From assembly GCF_050920415.1 (NCBI RefSeq), contig NZ_CP169309.1: a stretch of 64,000 nucleotides of DNA; one strand, given 5' to 3'. Of this stretch, positions 11,749 through 23,700 are shown piece by piece (position 1 is the first letter of the stretch; every line of letters starts with the position of its first letter). Source of the DNA: Escherichia coli. Its GTDB lineage: Bacteria; Pseudomonadota; Gammaproteobacteria; Enterobacterales; Enterobacteriaceae. The position numbers were made by a program.

Positions 11749-14700
11749 GCCGGAGAGATAACGGTCCTTATCAATCTTAATTGACGAGTGAGTTCGGGAT
11801 GACGAAACAGAAATGATATTCACCACGGCGGGGGCTTTAGCCGCATCCACACCGTTCAGCTGTGGCATCAGCGTCAGCGTGCCAGACATCGCTCCTGTGG
11901 TCAGGACTTGGGTATAGCTTCCGTCACCATTATCTTTCCAGTCAGAAAGGGTAATGTCCTGAACACCTTCATGACGCGTCGAGAGCACCAGCCCGATAAC
12001 AGGATTACCAGCTGCATCATGAGCAATAAAAGTCAGTGTGGCGGTTGAATGGGAATCCGCGCTCAATGTTTGGGTACTTAACGATACCGAGGAATCTTTC
12101 TGGCTTAGCGCAGGTGCCTGAACGACCACCATGCTTTGTTCACGATTCGACAAATTGCCTTTGACGTCTTCAGCGGTAACTTCAATCGGCCAGGTGTTAT
12201 CGGTTTCTGGCGTACTGGTGAACCGGTAACCAGGCAGGGTAACCAGAATATCTTTACCCGTTGTGACCACTTTACCACCGGCAGCTTCCAGAGCGGTGGC
12301 TTCGACGTTATAGCCTTTCAGGGCATATTTAGTTTGTAGCGACGAAACCAGTGATTTCACTTCTCCTGACTTCCCTGTCACGGGGTCTGTCAGGGTCAGG
12401 CGAACCAGTTCTTTTTTGCGATATTCCAGAACGATGTTGTTGTTGCGATCCACCAGATCATAACGGCTGCCTGCAAGGCTACGCCGTGCAGCGACTTCGT
12501 TCGGGTCAAGCTGTTTCTGCATTGCGCTGCCAGGTTGCCAGGTAAAATCGACGGCAAAACGGGTGTCATTTTCGCCCTGTTTACCCTGGCGTTGCTCCGC
12601 GCTGAAGGTCATCAGCGGGAAGGGGGTATAGTTAAGTCCAGCGGTTATGGCATGAGGATTACTTTGCCGATCGTCTTTATCGAACAGGGCTACTTCATCG
12701 CCATAATACTGTTCATAGACCAGTTTACCGCCAAGGTGCGGCCAGGCGGGTAACCAGCCTTCTGCGCGTACATCCCAGCCATTGGCCGGGCGTGCTTCAT
12801 AATCGTTGTCCAGTTCAGGTGCGCTGCGCCAGTTGGTCAGTCGCAAATAGCCGTTACTGCTTAATTTAAGATAGTCGCGCCAGTACTCCGCGCCAATGCC
12901 GGCGCGGGAGTGGTAACGGCTAAGATCGTGGTCGAAAAAGAAGTTGATGCCCGACATCCATGTGGGAGTGAAATGACGCCAACCCAAGCCGTTGTTAATC
13001 TGCGTACGCTCGTCAGTACGGTGGAGAGTATGCTGGCTGAAAAAGAGATTATCAGGCGTTTCATACCATGGATGGAGAAAATCGAACTGGGAATTCTTCA
13101 GGCTAAAATCTTCATCCACGCCCAGCGTGATTCTTGCGGTGCCGAAGCGGCTTAACCAGTCTGTCATTGCGCCAGATGCCTGAGAAGAGGCCCATCCACG
13201 CGCCATATTGGCCGCTTGCTCGCTGTTCATATCTTCGGCGAGCAGAGACCCGATTTGCTGTGAAGTACTGGCTATCTGTTGCTCAAGGTTGTCACTGCTA
13301 TTACGCGGCGACGGGGTTAAATTTTTTTCACTAACTTGTGCCGGGACATCCAGTTCATCACCCTGGCGGACATTATCAAAACCTCGAGCAAACGTACGAA
13401 ACTGGTTGAGTTTGCGTAACTCAGCCAACGAAATACCGAAACGTTCGGCAACGCTTTGGGCCGATTCGAGCGCTCCAAGGGTGTAGGGCACCGTATTGGT
13501 ATTTGCAATGGCGATTTGTGCAGGAACTGGTTGTTGGGTTGCGGCGTTTACCACACCTTGTGCTGCCGCAGTCATAGGGAACACAAGTTGAGTTACCAGG
13601 CAGATACCCGCAGTTAAGCGGCGTAGTTTAATACCCATCCCGCATAAGATTTGTCGGTCATTTATTTCTTCTCCACTTCTCTTCTTCGTAGCCATGCTTA
13701 CCTTCCCTGAACGAGCTAACATAAATGCGCCCTTTCTAGCACAGCGAAAAAATATAAATCCTGATAGCAATATGATTGAAAATTAATAACTTTTCGTTAA
13801 GCAGTTTTGGGTGTGAGTTGCAAGAGGGGAGACTACTGAATAACTCAGTTTAATAATTGAGGGGGCAATGGTGACGAATATAGGGACGGAGTAGAGAAGA
13901 TAGTGCTGAACTCTTTGCCAGCAGAAGGTTATGTGGCACAAAAATAACCGTAACTTCTCACTCTCGACAGGAAAGCTGTAGACGGCGTCCATAACAAAAC
14001 GCCCCCAACCATAAGGTCGAGGGCGCTTAAGATGACAAACCCGCTCTTCGTTAAAGAATCAATGCTTAATGTAGATGAGTTGCATTGCACGATAAAAGCG
14101 AATTTTTAGAATTTGGCTCCTCTGACTGGGATCGCCGTAGCCATTAACAGGCTGATTGGTAAAGCTAAAAAAATTTGAGTTTGTCAAGACCACCAGAATG
14201 ACCACCATTTTAAAGTAACATTTGAAGTTTACTCAGTAGCACCTTTAGCTTCACTTACAATCAATTAACCTGTGAAGATAGCTGTACCTACAATCGCAAT
14301 AACTTATTACAGATCCGACGACAAACATCACCTGTTATCCACTCTGGCACTACCGTGCATGATAATCAATAAGTCGGGTGCTGGCTTGCAAGGCAATTGC
14401 GTTGTAATGTACCAAATCCCAGTTCGCCTTCACTCTAAAATGCCCCGACGTTTCGAACGCGTTTACGGTAAATAATGCGTGACAATCTGCAGGAACTCAT
14501 CCCGCATCTGGTTGTCGATTTTCGGATTCCATGCCACACCAATGTTCCATATGATCTGCTTTCCCCACAGAGTAATCAGCTTGACTCCTACAGGTAAAAA
14601 ATTCTCGACGCTGGCGGGTAGCAGCGCGAGACCATTCCCTCCGGCTATCAATGCTAGCAGGGAATGAATATCATTCGTCGCAGAGATTGGCTCAATGATG

Positions 14701-20700: not shown

Positions 20701-23700
20701 CTATTTGCGGCGGGCTCGATAGGCGGCCATCTTGTTGAACAATTTGGCTTTTTGACGCATATCTTTTTGATTAGTGCCGTGGCCTTAATACTGACGCTGA
20801 TTATCGCTCCGGCCATTTTTAAAGACATACAGACGGTTAAATCCACCAGCAGACAGACCACCCGGTTGCCTCGTTCTCCGGCGATTTATCTGATTGGATT
20901 GATGGCTTTTCTGGCCATGATCCCTGAATGCGCTGTTGTTGACTGGTCGTCACGCTATTTGATTAAAAATCTCAATGCAAAAACAGAAATCGCCAGCCTT
21001 GCCTTCGCCTGCTTTGCTGTAGCAATGGCCTTGTTTCGCTTTATGGGTGACGTGATCCGCAACCGCTTCGGCGCAATATTAATTATACGAATCTCCAGCT
21101 TACTGGCAGGCGCTAGCCTATTGTTGAGCGCACTGGCACACAATCCCTGGCAGGCGATCTGCGCATTTACCTTAGCGGGAATCGGCATCGCCAACCTTGT
21201 GCCCATTGTCTTTTCCGCAGCGGGAAATCAGCCCAATATTTCCACCAACACAGGAATGAGCATTGCCACAACCATTGGGTATTTAGGCACGCTAATGGCC
21301 CCTGCGCCTATTGGCTATATTGCGGAAATAACCGGTTTTCCAGTGGTTTATTGCGGACTAGCTTTCATGTCGGGAATTATCTTTTTGCTGGCACCACTGG
21401 TTCGGGGGGCAGAAATCTCTGTACAGCGGCAGCGAGCCTCAAACAAACACCAGAATACCGGAGCGTTGTAATTTCTGCCTGGCAAATACTGTGAAACGCT
21501 GACGCAAATTTTACTTTCCTGCGTATTGTCATCACAGGCCGTACAGACAGTGCGCGGTCTGTTGGCGGATCTGCCTGGTATTTTGCCGATGAACTGAGGG
21601 CGTCCTGCGGGATACGTATCGCCAGGGGCGTGAAACTAATTGATGAGGTGGCGGCATGATGCCGGCGGACTAGCATATCTGCCTTTCGCCGCCTGACATG
21701 TCCTTTGGGGCCGCTGTCAGTTCAGAGTAAAGGAGAAAAAGATCGATACCGAGGGGGGGCACGACGCCCCGGAGACACCCCTGTTTCGTCAGACAGTCTG
21801 TACCGCGTACAGCCTGAAACTCCCTAAACCTCAACAAACTGCCACTTCGACGTGAAGGTATCGTTCTGGCGCAGCCAAAAAGCACATGCCGGAGACTGTT
21901 TTTTTGGTTGTAGAGGGTAGTCATGAGCAAATTAAGTAGTGAAATGAAGGCCCTGACGAAGAAAGCAGGCGGCAGCTTCAAAACGGTAAATGACCGTATC
22001 CATATTACAAAACGGTTCAGTGAGCATTTACGCGAACTGAACATCCAGATCCGGCGGGTATGCGCCAAGACTGACTCTGGATTCTTTTCCGTTGAAACGA
22101 TATTTGAGATACCAGATGCGTGAACCGCCCGGATTGACGAGCAGATACAGACCGTGAGAGTCGGAGAGTTTTACCGGACGGGAAGAGGTTTTTAACTTGC
22201 GGATTTTAGAATCGTTTAAAGACATTTGGGGGTCACTCCAGAATCGAACCAAACTGACCCCAGATCTGACCACCAAATTATCCCGATGCGGAGAGAAAAC
22301 CAGATACGCACCGGGGAGGATTTTCACGCTAACTTACTGAACCGTAAACAAATAGAGATGTACAGATAAGCATGAAAACTTGAATTTGGCTCCTCTGACT
22401 GGACTCGAACCAGTGACATACGGATTAACAGTCCGCCGTTCTACCGACTGAACTACAGAGGAATCGTGTGAACAGGGCGCATGTTACTTAGCGGTACCTT
22501 GTCTGTCAACACTAAATTTCATAAGTCATTTCAATTGGTTAATTAATCTGCAAAGTTGTTAATTAATGAACATTCGTCGCCGAAAACGAGTCTGTATCAT
22601 TAGCGTGATGCAGTCTCTGCAAAGGATCTTGTTGATAAAATTGGCAGAAACGTTGCCACAATGAAGGGAAACGAGGAGCAAAAAGCTCAGGGGCGCTAAA
22701 GAAATATTCAGAAAGTACGGCAAAACACTCAGCAGGATCACTGGCAGCATAAGCATCGATGCTCGCCGCATTCTCACCGACTAATTCGATCTCTTCCTGA
22801 ATGTTGTTCATTGCGGCATGAAGATCGTGTTCCCAGCCAGCAACCTCACGCAACGGAATAAAGGGAACTCCGCTGGCGCGATCGCCGTTACGGGTGTCCA
22901 GCTTATGAGCGACTTCATGAATAATCAGGTTAAAACCAGAAGCATCAAACGAATCTTGTATATCCAACCAGTTCAAAACGATTGGCCCTTGCTGCCAGCT
23001 CTGACCTGACTGAACAATACGTTGGTTATGCACTAAACCGATATCGTCTTCCCACTCATCATCGACTACAAATGGCGCAGGGTAAATTAAGACTTCATGA
23101 AAACCATCCAGCCATTCTAGCCCTAACTCCAGAACGGGCAGGCAAAATAGAAGGGCTATCCGGCAGCTTCTTAATGAATCCAGCTCAAAGCCCTGTAAGG
23201 GAACAAGCCGTTTTTGCTGTAAAAAACGTTCGGCAAGAGTGACTAATTTGCTTTGTTCCTGTTCTGTCAGGCACGTTAAAAGGGGAATCGATAGTGCTTC
23301 CTGCCAGGGAAGGGCAGTTTGATGTGCTGATTCTTGTACTTTCCAGGGCCACTTAATCATCGTTTTGCTCGCAAACTCGTCACTTGAACAAAATTGCACG
23401 GACAGGGACTGTTAAAATGCCAAATTTCCTGGCATCATGGCAACCATCTGAACGGAGAGATGCCGGAGCGGCTGAACGGACCGGTCTCGAAAACCGGAGT
23501 AGGGGCAACTCTACCGGGGGTTCAAATCCCCCTCTCTCCGCCACTTTATCAATGACTTATCTCCCGACTTCCCGCCTTGCTTTTCCTAAACAGAACAATC
23601 GTAGAATATTCTTGAAGGGTTAGATCGTCACTGTTTTCTGTTCGATACTGTGACATTCAGCACTTGATTCGCTATGGATCAGACAGGAAGGTTTCGAGCG

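What the first reader, a model, noticed from the sequence alone, without database searches (positions are those of the whole stretch)
14109..22462. Degenerate tRNA-Asn island with exact 21-bp att repeats and an integrase stub
The 3' end of asnT plus 5 flanking nt (gaatttggctcctctgactgg) recurs exactly at 14109-14129, bracketing ~8.3 kb between asnT and the yeeJ upstream region. A P4-type integrase reduced to its first ~65 codons lies next to the tRNA, and ~550 bp of non-coding debris separates it from the cargo operon. This is the signature of an integrative element that lost mobility while its cargo was retained. The cargo is not the yersiniabactin island often found at asn tRNA genes.
Basis: seen in the sequence. 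Interest (0 to 1): 0.55.

Follow-up and report, generated by a model that had tools for sequence, protein, structure and literature searches.

The report
Decayed tRNA-Asn island carrying orphan hypEF
An 8.3-kb piece of foreign DNA sits beside an asparagine tRNA gene in a handful of E. coli strains; a deletion destroyed its integrase, but it keeps an intact five-gene operon of unknown function built around second copies of two hydrogenase-maturation enzymes.

Summary
The 21-mer GAATTTGGCTCCTCTGACTGG occurs exactly twice, 8,273 bp apart. One copy is the last 16 nt of asnT plus 5 nt. K-12-type genomes have one copy with the same flanks, so this is a clean insertion.

It is rare: 16 of 5,426 complete E. 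coli genomes. The integrase stub and the neighbouring "debris" come from two deletions. One is about 3.1 kb, joined at a 9-bp microhomology, and removed the 3' parts of two convergent recombinase genes. The other is 731 bp. Two strains carry the less decayed 11.9-kb form of the same island at a different tRNA-Asn gene (asnV).

The "debris" also holds a full-length EFASI RNA.

The cargo is a LysR regulator plus an operon of cysteine hydrolase, HypE, HypF, HAD phosphatase and MFS transporter. The hydrolase–HypE–HypF trio recurs in the same order in 63 of 69 bacterial loci examined. It forms a clade separate from hydrogenase-linked HypEF and has no described function.

As an island this is an ordinary new member of the asn-tRNA, P4-like-integrase kind. 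The cargo is the more interesting part.

The parts
14109..14129 (.). Distal att repeat, 21 bp, a copy of the asnT 3' end plus 5 nt
   Evidence: Exact second copy. The K-12 empty site has only one copy. Related islands have a 1-mismatch copy at the same place.
14130..14230 (.). Conserved island terminus, about 100 bp, with two GACCACC motifs at 14188 and 14200 that may be integrase arm sites
   Evidence: Positions 14130-14214 are 88.6% identical to the distal ends of other asn-tRNA islands in about 30 genomes and to Raoultella terrigena. The motif count is only weakly above chance.
14463..15341 (-). LysR-family regulator, divergent from the operon
   Evidence: NCBIfam LysR models match, none above an equivalog cut-off. 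PGAP protein WP_000014150.1. It is conserved next to the operon in other Enterobacterales.
15568..16167 (+). Isochorismatase-family cysteine hydrolase, first gene of the operon
   Evidence: Pfam PF00857 on homologues. D10, K97 and C130 are invariant in 21 homologues from four phyla. The nearest solved relatives are ureido and carbamoyl amidohydrolases.
16164..17195 (+). HypE paralogue ending in ...GAELPRLC
   Evidence: TIGR02124 scores 415 bits against a cut-off of 251.6. It aligns to HypE structures through the C-terminal Cys. It belongs to a clade separate from canonical HypE.
17167..19545 (+). HypF paralogue, a full-length carbamoyltransferase
   Evidence: TIGR00143 scores 788 bits against a cut-off of 466, covering model positions 2-740 of 741. 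It is 49-66% identical to trio HypF proteins and 34% to a canonical HypF.
19538..20278 (+). HAD-IA phosphatase
   Evidence: TIGR01509 is above its cut-off. The best specific models are sugar phosphatases, all below cut-off.
20278..21471 (+). MFS transporter, last gene of the operon
   Evidence: Only weak MFS subfamily matches. PGAP annotation.
21472..21683 (.). 3' flank of the cargo, shared with the long form. The breakpoint of a 731-bp deletion lies at 21683|21684
   Evidence: The cargo match to L015 runs through 21683. L015 positions 19557-20287 are absent from the window. The missing piece holds an SfsB/Ner-like HTH pseudogene.
21738..21867 (+). EFASI RNA (Rfam RF02957), full length
   Evidence: 90.1 bits against a gathering score of 51.2, model positions 1-133 of 133. 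The same element scores 100-103 bits in the related islands L003 and L015.
21923..22060 (+). First 46 codons of a small tyrosine recombinase gene (Pfam Phage_int_SAM_2 plus Integrase_1 in full-length relatives)
   Evidence: 43 of 46 residues are identical to the start of the 294-aa protein in L003. PGAP marks it as a pseudogene.
22051..22059 (.). Deletion junction with the microhomology CCGGCGGGT
   Evidence: The two parental segments in L003 both carry CCAGCGGGT, and the matches to them overlap at window positions 22047-22059.
22055..22225 (-). First 57 codons of a P4-like integrase, arm-DNA-binding domain only
   Evidence: PRK09692 matches model positions 8-64. It is 74% identical to the N-terminus of the HPI integrase and 96.7% nt identical to the L003 integrase region. 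PGAP marks it as a pseudogene.
22382..22402 (.). Proximal att repeat, overlapping the 3' end of asnT
22387..22462 (-). tRNA-Asn(GTT), asnT, intact
   Evidence: ARAGORN. Rfam tRNA model, 72.6 bits.

Best explanation
This is a small integrative genomic island of the asn-tRNA, P4-like-integrase kind.

How it arrived and decayed. It entered by site-specific recombination at the 3' end of a tRNA-Asn gene, which duplicated 21 bp. It originally carried a roughly 4.3-kb integration module: an SfsB/Ner-like HTH gene, a small ORF, an EFASI RNA, a small Integrase_1-type recombinase gene and a convergent P4-like integrase next to the tRNA. Two deletions shortened that module to about 0.7 kb. One removed 731 bp. 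The other removed about 3.1 kb between two CC(A/G)GCGGGT microhomologies. No complete recombinase gene is left. Both att repeats and the cargo remain.

What the cargo is. It is a LysR regulator and a tightly overlapping five-gene operon: cysteine hydrolase, HypE paralogue, HypF paralogue, HAD phosphatase and MFS transporter.

How it spread (inferred). The immobilised form has since moved between E. coli backgrounds by homologous recombination.

What the operon does (inferred, untested). HypF would carbamoylate the C-terminal cysteine of its partner HypE. HypE would dehydrate that to a thiocyanate. The cysteine hydrolase would pass on or release the carbamoyl or cyano group, probably to a phosphorylated small molecule. 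The HAD enzyme would dephosphorylate that molecule and the MFS protein would transport it.
For: Insertion:
- Exact 21-bp repeats 8,273 bp apart.
- A single-copy empty site with identical flanks in K-12-type genomes, present in at least 2,680 genomes.
- Cargo in only 16 of 5,426 genomes, never on plasmids.

Deletions:
- Window 21684-22059 matches L003 6001-6377 and window 22047-22560 matches L003 9521-10034. The matches overlap at a shared 9-mer.
- The long form of the same cargo (99.5% identical) in Z1323HEC0462 and NY1601 keeps both recombinase genes as pseudogenes plus the 731 bp missing here.

Past mobility:
- The long form sits at asnV and the short form at asnT.
- Raoultella terrigena has the same island end, regulator and hydrolase at 88% nt identity, behind its own copy of the repeat.
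- Related integration modules with other cargo occur in 521 genomes. One, in CREC-544, has an intact integrase.

Cargo retained:
- ORFs are intact, and dN/dS is 0.05-0.16 against Raoultella.

Spread after immobilisation:
- The same two junctions are found in 14 genomes.
- Between the window and R32_14_1F, pooled dS is 0.081 for flank genes but 0.0125 for island genes.

Cargo chemistry:
- HypE and HypF models score above their equivalog cut-offs, and the C-terminal Cys is kept.
- The hydrolase keeps its Asp-Lys-Cys triad.
- Its nearest solved relatives act on carbamoyl and ureido groups.
Against: - No excision or integration was observed; mobility is inferred from comparison only.
- The recombination-spread inference is not clean. 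mtfA, directly next to asnT, is highly diverged (dS 0.146). The integrase debris is 97.3% identical while the cargo is 99.3%. The exchanged tract would therefore have to end inside the island.
- In Citrobacter and Pseudescherichia the same operon abuts a tRNA-Asn gene with no recombinase remains and no distal repeat. There it looks like backbone.
- Cargo decay does occur. The hydrolase gene is disrupted in AST85, and a deletion runs into hypE in WL297.
- Within E. coli the HypF paralogue shows 6 nonsynonymous and 0 synonymous changes in one comparison.
- The proposed chemistry has no experimental or literature support.
Confidence: 0.88

Rival explanations
1. The segment is ancestral E. coli backbone, removed from most lineages by recombination between the two 21-bp repeats.
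For: The repeats would allow precise loss. The operon lies next to a tRNA-Asn gene, without island features, in Citrobacter and Pseudescherichia.
Against: Only 16 of 5,426 genomes carry it. It occupies two different asn tRNA genes. Island genes are about six times less diverged at synonymous sites than flank genes between carriers. It carries remnants of an integration module shared with other islands.
Confidence: 0.03
2. The island is not fully immobile. Both att repeats are intact, so a related asn-tRNA integrase made elsewhere in the cell, such as that of HPI or of an RHS-type islet, could still excise or move it in trans.
For: The repeats are exact. The stub's N-terminus is 74% identical to the HPI integrase. 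All asn tRNA genes offer the same core. The same cargo sits at asnT and at asnV.
Against: P4-like integrases usually need their own arm sites, and often a directionality factor. None is encoded here, because the HTH gene lost from the window is SfsB/Ner-like and not an excisionase. The asnV copy is the long form, so its move may predate the deletion.
Confidence: 0.2
3. The hypEF operon is not the island's original cargo. It replaced RHS/PAAR-type cargo by recombination inside a resident islet of the same family.
For: Islands with the same ends and related integration modules carry RHS, PAAR and toxin-antitoxin genes instead. Identity drops sharply at 21683|21684, from 99.5% to 91.6% against the long form and from 99.3% to 97.3% against R32_14_1F.
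Against: Raoultella has the same terminus joined to the same regulator and hydrolase. The terminus-cargo junction is therefore old and shared across genera.
Confidence: 0.25
4. The HypE and HypF paralogues are simply spare hydrogenase-maturation factors that supply cyanide ligands to [NiFe] hydrogenases.
For: Both score as equivalogs of HypE and HypF. In Paraburkholderia phymatum the trio lies beside a hydrogenase cluster and is NifA-dependent like it.
Against: That plasmid already has a full hypABFCDE set. Trio proteins are 42-44% (HypE) and 33-36% (HypF) identical to the canonical pair, but 60-76% and 49-66% identical to each other across phyla. 63 of 69 bacterial loci keep the hydrolase-HypE-HypF order. 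No HypC or HypD Pfam family appears within 10 kb in four contexts. Neighbours in actinomycetes are aminotransferase, ATP-grasp, NRPS and M20 genes. Kloosterman et al. 2020 drew the same conclusion for a Streptomyces cluster (PMC7794033).
Confidence: 0.12

Closest known systems
High-pathogenicity island (HPI, yersiniabactin) at asnT of E. coli
   Same: Same insertion site. A P4-like integrase lies next to the tRNA, and the stub is 74% identical to the N-terminus of the HPI integrase. HPI is also fixed in E. coli by a deletion and spread by homologous recombination (PMC2606025).
   Different: The cargo is unrelated, with no ybt genes. HPI is much larger than 8.3 kb. Only one end of HPI was inspected here; its size is from general knowledge. 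HPI lost a direct repeat and kept its integrase. This island kept both repeats and lost its integrase.
Other E. coli asn-tRNA islets with RHS/PAAR cargo (for example CREC-544 and 2023CK-01509)
   Same: They share the distal roughly 100-bp terminus. The EFASI RNA, Integrase_1-type gene and P4-like integrase region are 90-97% identical. They use the same target sites.
   Different: Their cargo is RHS, PAAR and toxin-antitoxin genes. Their recombinase genes are full length or nearly so.
Enterobacteriaceae-associated ROD21-like (EARL) islands
   Same: [quoted passage not shown]
   Different: EARL islands are 19-41 kb with 24-37-bp repeats. They encode H-NS-like proteins, a directionality factor and transfer proteins. 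None of these is present here. Sequence similarity to the ROD21 attL-int probe was not tested.
Canonical HypE/HypF of [NiFe]-hydrogenase maturation
   Same: Full domain architecture and the C-terminal cysteine of HypE are kept. Both score above the equivalog cut-offs.
   Different: This is a separate clade with a GAELPRLC tail. It has no HypC or HypD partner and always follows a cysteine hydrolase gene.
Streptomyces hypE/hypF plus ATP-grasp candidate cluster (Kloosterman et al. 2020, PMC7794033)
   Same: The idea is the same: hyp homologues without other hyp genes, presumed to have a new function. The actinomycete loci found here have the same kind of neighbours.
   Different: The enterobacterial version is reduced to hydrolase, HypE, HypF, HAD and MFS under a LysR regulator, and rides on an integrative island.

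Membership tests
tRNA-integrated genomic island (P4-like integrase type) | Insertion at the 3' end of a tRNA gene, flanked by a direct repeat of the tRNA end | tested here: met
   Exact 21-bp repeat that includes 16 nt of asnT.
tRNA-integrated genomic island (P4-like integrase type) | Related genomes show an uninterrupted empty site | tested here: met
   K-12-type junction with one repeat copy, present in at least 2,680 genomes.
tRNA-integrated genomic island (P4-like integrase type) | A functional integrase gene next to the tRNA | tested here: not met
   Only 57 codons remain. The island is therefore filed as a degenerate member.
tRNA-integrated genomic island (P4-like integrase type) | Excision to a circular form | not testable with these tools
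   This needs PCR or deep sequencing across the repeats.
P4-like tyrosine integrase | N-terminal arm-DNA-binding domain | tested here: met
   PRK09692 model positions 8-64. PGAP calls it an Arm DNA-binding domain. It is 74% identical to the HPI integrase.
P4-like tyrosine integrase | Catalytic domain with the tyrosine-recombinase active site | tested here: not met
   Deleted. The match to full-length relatives ends at residue 57.
High-pathogenicity island | Yersiniabactin (ybt/irp/fyuA) genes | tested here: not met
   The cargo genes are unrelated. A true HPI at the same site is shown for comparison.
EARL / ROD21-like islands | Similarity to the ROD21 attL-integrase 5' probe | not tested
   No ROD21 sequence was fetched. 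The definition is taken from PMC6035254.
EARL / ROD21-like islands | Size of 19-41 kb, with H-NS-like, directionality-factor and transfer genes | tested here: not met
   The island is 8.3 kb and has none of these genes.
EFASI RNA (RF02957) | Covariance-model score at or above the gathering threshold, next to an integrase gene in Enterobacteriaceae | tested here: met
   90.1 bits against 51.2, full length, 55 nt upstream of the recombinase remnant. One hairpin has two non-standard pairs.
HypE (TIGR02124) | Equivalog score and a C-terminal cysteine | tested here: met
   415 bits against a cut-off of 251.6. The protein ends PRLC.
HypE/HypF hydrogenase-maturation system | Genomic and functional association with HypC, HypD and a [NiFe] hydrogenase | tested here: not met
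   No HypC or HypD family within 10 kb in four contexts. It is a separate clade from the canonical pair. Function was not tested.
HypF (TIGR00143) | Full-length carbamoyltransferase architecture | tested here: met
   788 bits against a cut-off of 466, model positions 2-740 of 741. Homologues carry the Pfam acylphosphatase, zf-HYPF, YrdC and HypF_C domains.
Isochorismatase-like cysteine hydrolase | Asp-Lys-Cys catalytic triad | tested here: met
   D10, K97 and C130 are invariant in 21 homologues. The region aligns to solved family members.

The most novel reading that the evidence does not exclude
The island's cargo is one instance of an undescribed, widely distributed three-gene cassette: isochorismatase-type cysteine hydrolase, then HypE, then HypF. 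This cassette would use the carbamoyl-to-thiocyanate chemistry of hydrogenase maturation for something other than hydrogenases. The most likely use is putting a carbamoyl or cyano group onto an amine-bearing small molecule. In E. coli that would be a phosphorylated metabolite that is then dephosphorylated and exported. In actinomycetes and myxobacteria it would be a diaminobutyrate- or peptide-derived natural product.
Probability: 0.45. Interest if true: 0.7.

Novelty: new member of a known kind. Interest (0 to 1): 0.4.

Why it matters
As an island it is a clear example of how integrative elements become fixed. Four stages of the same element can be lined up:
- relatives with an intact integrase;
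- the long form with pseudogenised recombinase genes, at asnV;
- the short form here, at asnT;
- strains with further loss into the cargo or into yeeJ.

It is the mirror image of HPI at the same site. Here the repeats are kept and the integrase is lost.

The larger point is the cargo. A second HypE-HypF pair, always preceded by a highly conserved cysteine hydrolase, recurs from E. coli to Streptomyces and has no assigned function. The E. coli and Citrobacter version is the smallest and most genetically tractable form. It could be used to find out what this chemistry makes.

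Tried and rejected
- Literature. Searches for HypF, HypE and cysteine hydrolase or isochorismatase, for 'HypE-like' and 'HypF-like', and for an asnT island with yeeJ found nothing specific. One search was swamped by words beginning with 'hype'.
- Promoters and terminators. The scan over the island gave fewer sites than shuffled controls, so it is uninformative.
- GACCACC as an arm site. There are 11 matches in the window against 4.6 expected, and 2 of 100 shuffles reach that count. It is kept only as a weak lead.
- Plasmid search. 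No close plasmid copy exists. The best hits, about 68% identical on Citrobacter 'plasmids', are flanked by ndh, nagZ, thiK and lpoB, which are normally chromosomal genes. I did not treat them as evidence of plasmid carriage.
- Excisionase remnant. None was found. The HTH pseudogene of the long form is SfsB/Ner-like and lies in the 731 bp missing from the window.
- Archaeal hydrolase homologues (33-44% identical) lack HypE and HypF nearby and were set aside as a different family.
- Neighbour clustering. My own ORF clustering in high-G+C loci was contaminated by antisense ORFs, so only clusters with a clear family match were used.

Full report
**Observation**

The 21-mer GAATTTGGCTCCTCTGACTGG occurs exactly twice in the window, at 14109-14129 and 22382-22402. 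No further match appears even with two mismatches, and none of 100 shuffles gave two matches. It is the longest direct repeat between 13900 and 22600, with a spacing of 8,273 bp.

tRNA-Asn(GTT) lies at 22387-22462 on the minus strand. The proximal copy is therefore the last 16 nt of the tRNA plus 5 nt downstream. Identity stops at both edges of the 21-mer.

The surrounding genes are yeeJ (5707-13770, minus strand), mtfA (22563-23399, minus strand) and tRNA-Ser(CGA). This is the E. coli yeeJ-asnT-mtfA-serU locus.

**It is an insertion**

A K-12-type genome has a single copy of the 21-mer. It is preceded by the same GCGAATTTTTA that precedes the distal copy in the window, and it runs straight into the tRNA. 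A 201-nt probe across that uninterrupted junction is covered by at least 80% in 2,680 of 5,426 complete E. coli genomes.

The cargo is present in 15 genomes at 99.1-100% identity and partly in one more. It is always chromosomal. The window is identical to strain MFDS1022581.

**How the integrase stub and the 'debris' arose**

Another asnT island, in strain 2023CK-01509 (locus L003), has two convergent genes next to the tRNA. One is a 294-aa recombinase with Pfam Phage_int_SAM_2 and Integrase_1 domains. The other is a P4-like integrase.

Window 21684-22059 matches L003 6001-6377 at 90.5%. Window 22047-22560 matches L003 9521-10034 at 96.7%. The two matches overlap at CCGGCGGGT (22051-22059), and both parental positions in L003 read CCAGCGGGT. 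A single deletion of about 3.1 kb between these microhomologies therefore removed the 3' parts of both genes. What is left:
- 46 codons of the small recombinase, 43 of 46 residues identical to L003;
- 57 codons of the integrase.

**A less decayed form exists**

Strains Z1323HEC0462 and NY1601 carry the same cargo at 99.5% identity. In them it lies next to a different tRNA-Asn gene, asnV, beside nac and cbl. It is bounded by GAATCTGGCTCC... (one mismatch) and the exact 21-mer, 11.9 kb apart.

This long form keeps an HTH pseudogene, a small ORF, the small recombinase gene (internal stop) and the integrase (frameshifted). Relative to it, the window lacks 731 bp at 21683|21684 as well as the large deletion. 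The HTH pseudogene is SfsB/Ner-like, not an excisionase.

A probe across both junctions is matched in one piece in 14 genomes. These are the short form: 13 with complete cargo, plus WL297. In the two long-form genomes it matches in split pieces.

Further decay is visible elsewhere. In WL297 a deletion runs from yeeJ into the hypE paralogue. In AST85 the hydrolase gene is broken.

**The 'debris' is not all debris**

Rfam finds a full-length EFASI RNA at 21738-21867 on the plus strand. It scores 90.1 bits against a gathering score of 51.2 and lies 55 nt upstream of the small recombinase remnant. The copies in L003 and L015 score 100-103 bits. The window copy has two non-standard pairs in one hairpin.

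EFASI is described in Rfam as an enterobacterial RNA of unknown function, frequently found near STAXI RNAs and integrase genes. This description is quoted in PMC12370729.

**The island belongs to a family**

The first 85-100 bp inside the distal repeat are about 89% identical to the distal ends of other asn-tRNA islands in about 30 genomes. In CREC-544 such an island is 10.9 kb. It has PAAR, RHS and RelE/ParE genes and an intact integrase, and it is bounded by a one-mismatch copy of the repeat at the yeeJ side.

Sequences related to the window's integration module occur in 521 of 5,426 genomes. The yersiniabactin island occupies the same site in many strains, and its integrase N-terminus is 74% identical to the stub.

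**Beyond E. coli**

Raoultella terrigena NBRC 14941 has the repeat (AAATTTGGCTCC...), the island terminus, the LysR gene, the hydrolase gene and the start of hypE at 88% nt identity. The held sequence ends there.

In a Pseudescherichia-like genome and several Citrobacter genomes, the operon ends 40-120 bp from a tRNA-Asn gene or a tRNA-Asn 3'-end sequence. No recombinase remains and no distal repeat are present. I read these as older, fully domesticated insertions. That is inference.

**Spread within E. coli**

Between the window and strain R32_14_1F, nine flanking genes have a pooled dS of 0.081; mtfA alone is 0.146. The six island genes have a pooled dS of 0.0125. By segment:
- flanks are 97.1-98.5% identical;
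- the cargo is 99.1-99.3% identical;
- the integrase debris is 97.3% identical.

Both genomes have the same deletion junctions. The already immobile island is therefore younger than the divergence of its hosts at this locus. This points to transfer by homologous recombination, as shown for HPI at the same site (PMC2606025). The mosaic pattern means any exchanged tract would have to end inside the island. This step is inferred, not shown.

**Cargo**

The operon genes overlap by 1 to 29 bp. The gene products are:
- a LysR-family regulator, transcribed divergently;
- a 199-aa isochorismatase-family cysteine hydrolase;
- a HypE paralogue (TIGR02124, 415 bits against a cut-off of 251.6);
- a full-length HypF paralogue (TIGR00143, 788 bits against 466);
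- a HAD-IA phosphatase;
- an MFS transporter.

HypE keeps its C-terminal cysteine, ending PRLC. The hydrolase keeps Asp10, Lys97 and Cys130. Its nearest solved relatives are an N-carbamoylsarcosine-amidase-related protein, RutB and biuret hydrolase. Against the Raoultella copy, dN/dS is 0.05-0.16.

**The trio is a conserved cassette**

The hydrolase family is unusually conserved, about 50% identical between E. coli and Streptomyces. A scan of one genome per species found relatives in 235 stretches, and the best 80 loci were kept.

Of the 69 bacterial loci among these:
- 63 have HypE and then HypF directly downstream, in that order;
- one has both genes nearby;
- three are cut by a contig or locus end;
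- two lack them.

The 11 archaeal loci, with more distant hydrolases, have neither gene.

Contexts differ by lineage:
- Enterobacterales: LysR, HAD and MFS genes;
- Caballeronia: additional SIS and amidohydrolase genes;
- Sorangium: an upstream NRPS, plus ABC-transporter and GST genes;
- actinomycetes: diaminobutyrate aminotransferase, ATP-grasp ligase, M20 amidohydrolase, NRPS adenylation and MFS efflux genes.

The Paraburkholderia phymatum plasmid pBPHY02 has the trio beside a hydrogenase cluster that has its own complete hypABFCDE set. Trio HypE proteins are 60-76% identical to each other across four phyla, but 42-44% identical to the canonical HypE of that plasmid. For HypF the figures are 49-66% against 33-36%. 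All trio HypE proteins examined end in GAELPRLC, against PRIC in the canonical protein.

No paper in the library links HypE, HypF and an isochorismatase. Kloosterman et al. 2020 noted a Streptomyces hypE/hypF plus ATP-grasp cluster without other hyp genes and suggested a new function (PMC7794033).

**Mechanism proposed for the cargo (inference)**

From the established HypF/HypE chemistry, HypF would carbamoylate the C-terminal cysteine of HypE using carbamoyl phosphate, and HypE would dehydrate that adduct to a thiocyanate.

Cysteine hydrolases of this fold that act on ureido compounds are known, from general knowledge of the family, to work through a carbamoyl-thioester on their catalytic cysteine. 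That is the same kind of chemical species as the HypE adduct. The hydrolase is therefore a plausible acceptor or releaser of the carbamoyl or cyano group.

The HAD and MFS genes suggest a phosphorylated small-molecule acceptor that is dephosphorylated and transported. None of this was tested.

**Verdict**

As a mobile element this is an ordinary, degenerate new member of the asn-tRNA, P4-like-integrase island kind. The unusual part is its cargo, which is a member of an uncharacterised, hydrogenase-independent HypEF cassette.

Noticed in passing
The same RNA sits upstream of the small recombinase gene in related islands (L003 6057-6186, L015 20343-20471).
   Followed up: partly
window 62702-62971 (+): Group II intron domain matches (RF02001 at 103.6 bits, RF01998 at 46.8 bits). 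This suggests a group II intron near the right end of the window.
   Followed up: no
window 45578-45664 (+) and 37153-37242 (-): DsrA and RseX small RNAs, as expected for this part of the E. coli chromosome.
   Followed up: no
window ~13875-13995: The yeeJ upstream region has roughly 110 bp that the K-12 locus lacks. This is a separate indel outside the island.
   Followed up: no
window 14188-14206 and 22268-22274: GACCACC occurs twice near the distal island end and once between the integrase start and the proximal repeat. The distal pair is conserved in CREC-544 and partly in Raoultella. These may be integrase arm sites, but the count is only weakly above chance.
   Followed up: partly
L015 2658-11926 (strain Z1323HEC0462) and L016: A PTS, hexulose-phosphate and ribulose-phosphate sugar cluster lies between ldtA and the distal repeat of the long-form island at asnV. 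It may be an older tandem insertion at the same tRNA.
   Followed up: no
L011 30831-33300 (strain CREC-544): In this strain yeeJ and its island are followed by tRNA-Asn and then nac and cbl. This implies a rearrangement between asn tRNA genes.
   Followed up: no
L012 11884-14745 and L097 6744-10000: A different island lies downstream of serU, with DUF6387, HTH, H-NS-like and NACHT genes. It is present in WL297 and CU532-9.
   Followed up: no
L021 (Gilliamella sp. WF3-4): The hydrolase gene is followed directly by the HAD and MFS genes, with HypE and HypF absent. This is a natural reduced variant that could help show what the hydrolase does on its own.
   Followed up: no
L009 5499-12801 (Paraburkholderia phymatum pBPHY02): The trio sits with an EctB-like aminotransferase and a GNAT gene next to the symbiotic hydrogenase cluster. 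Its genes are among those down-regulated in a nifA mutant (PMC8305402).
   Followed up: partly
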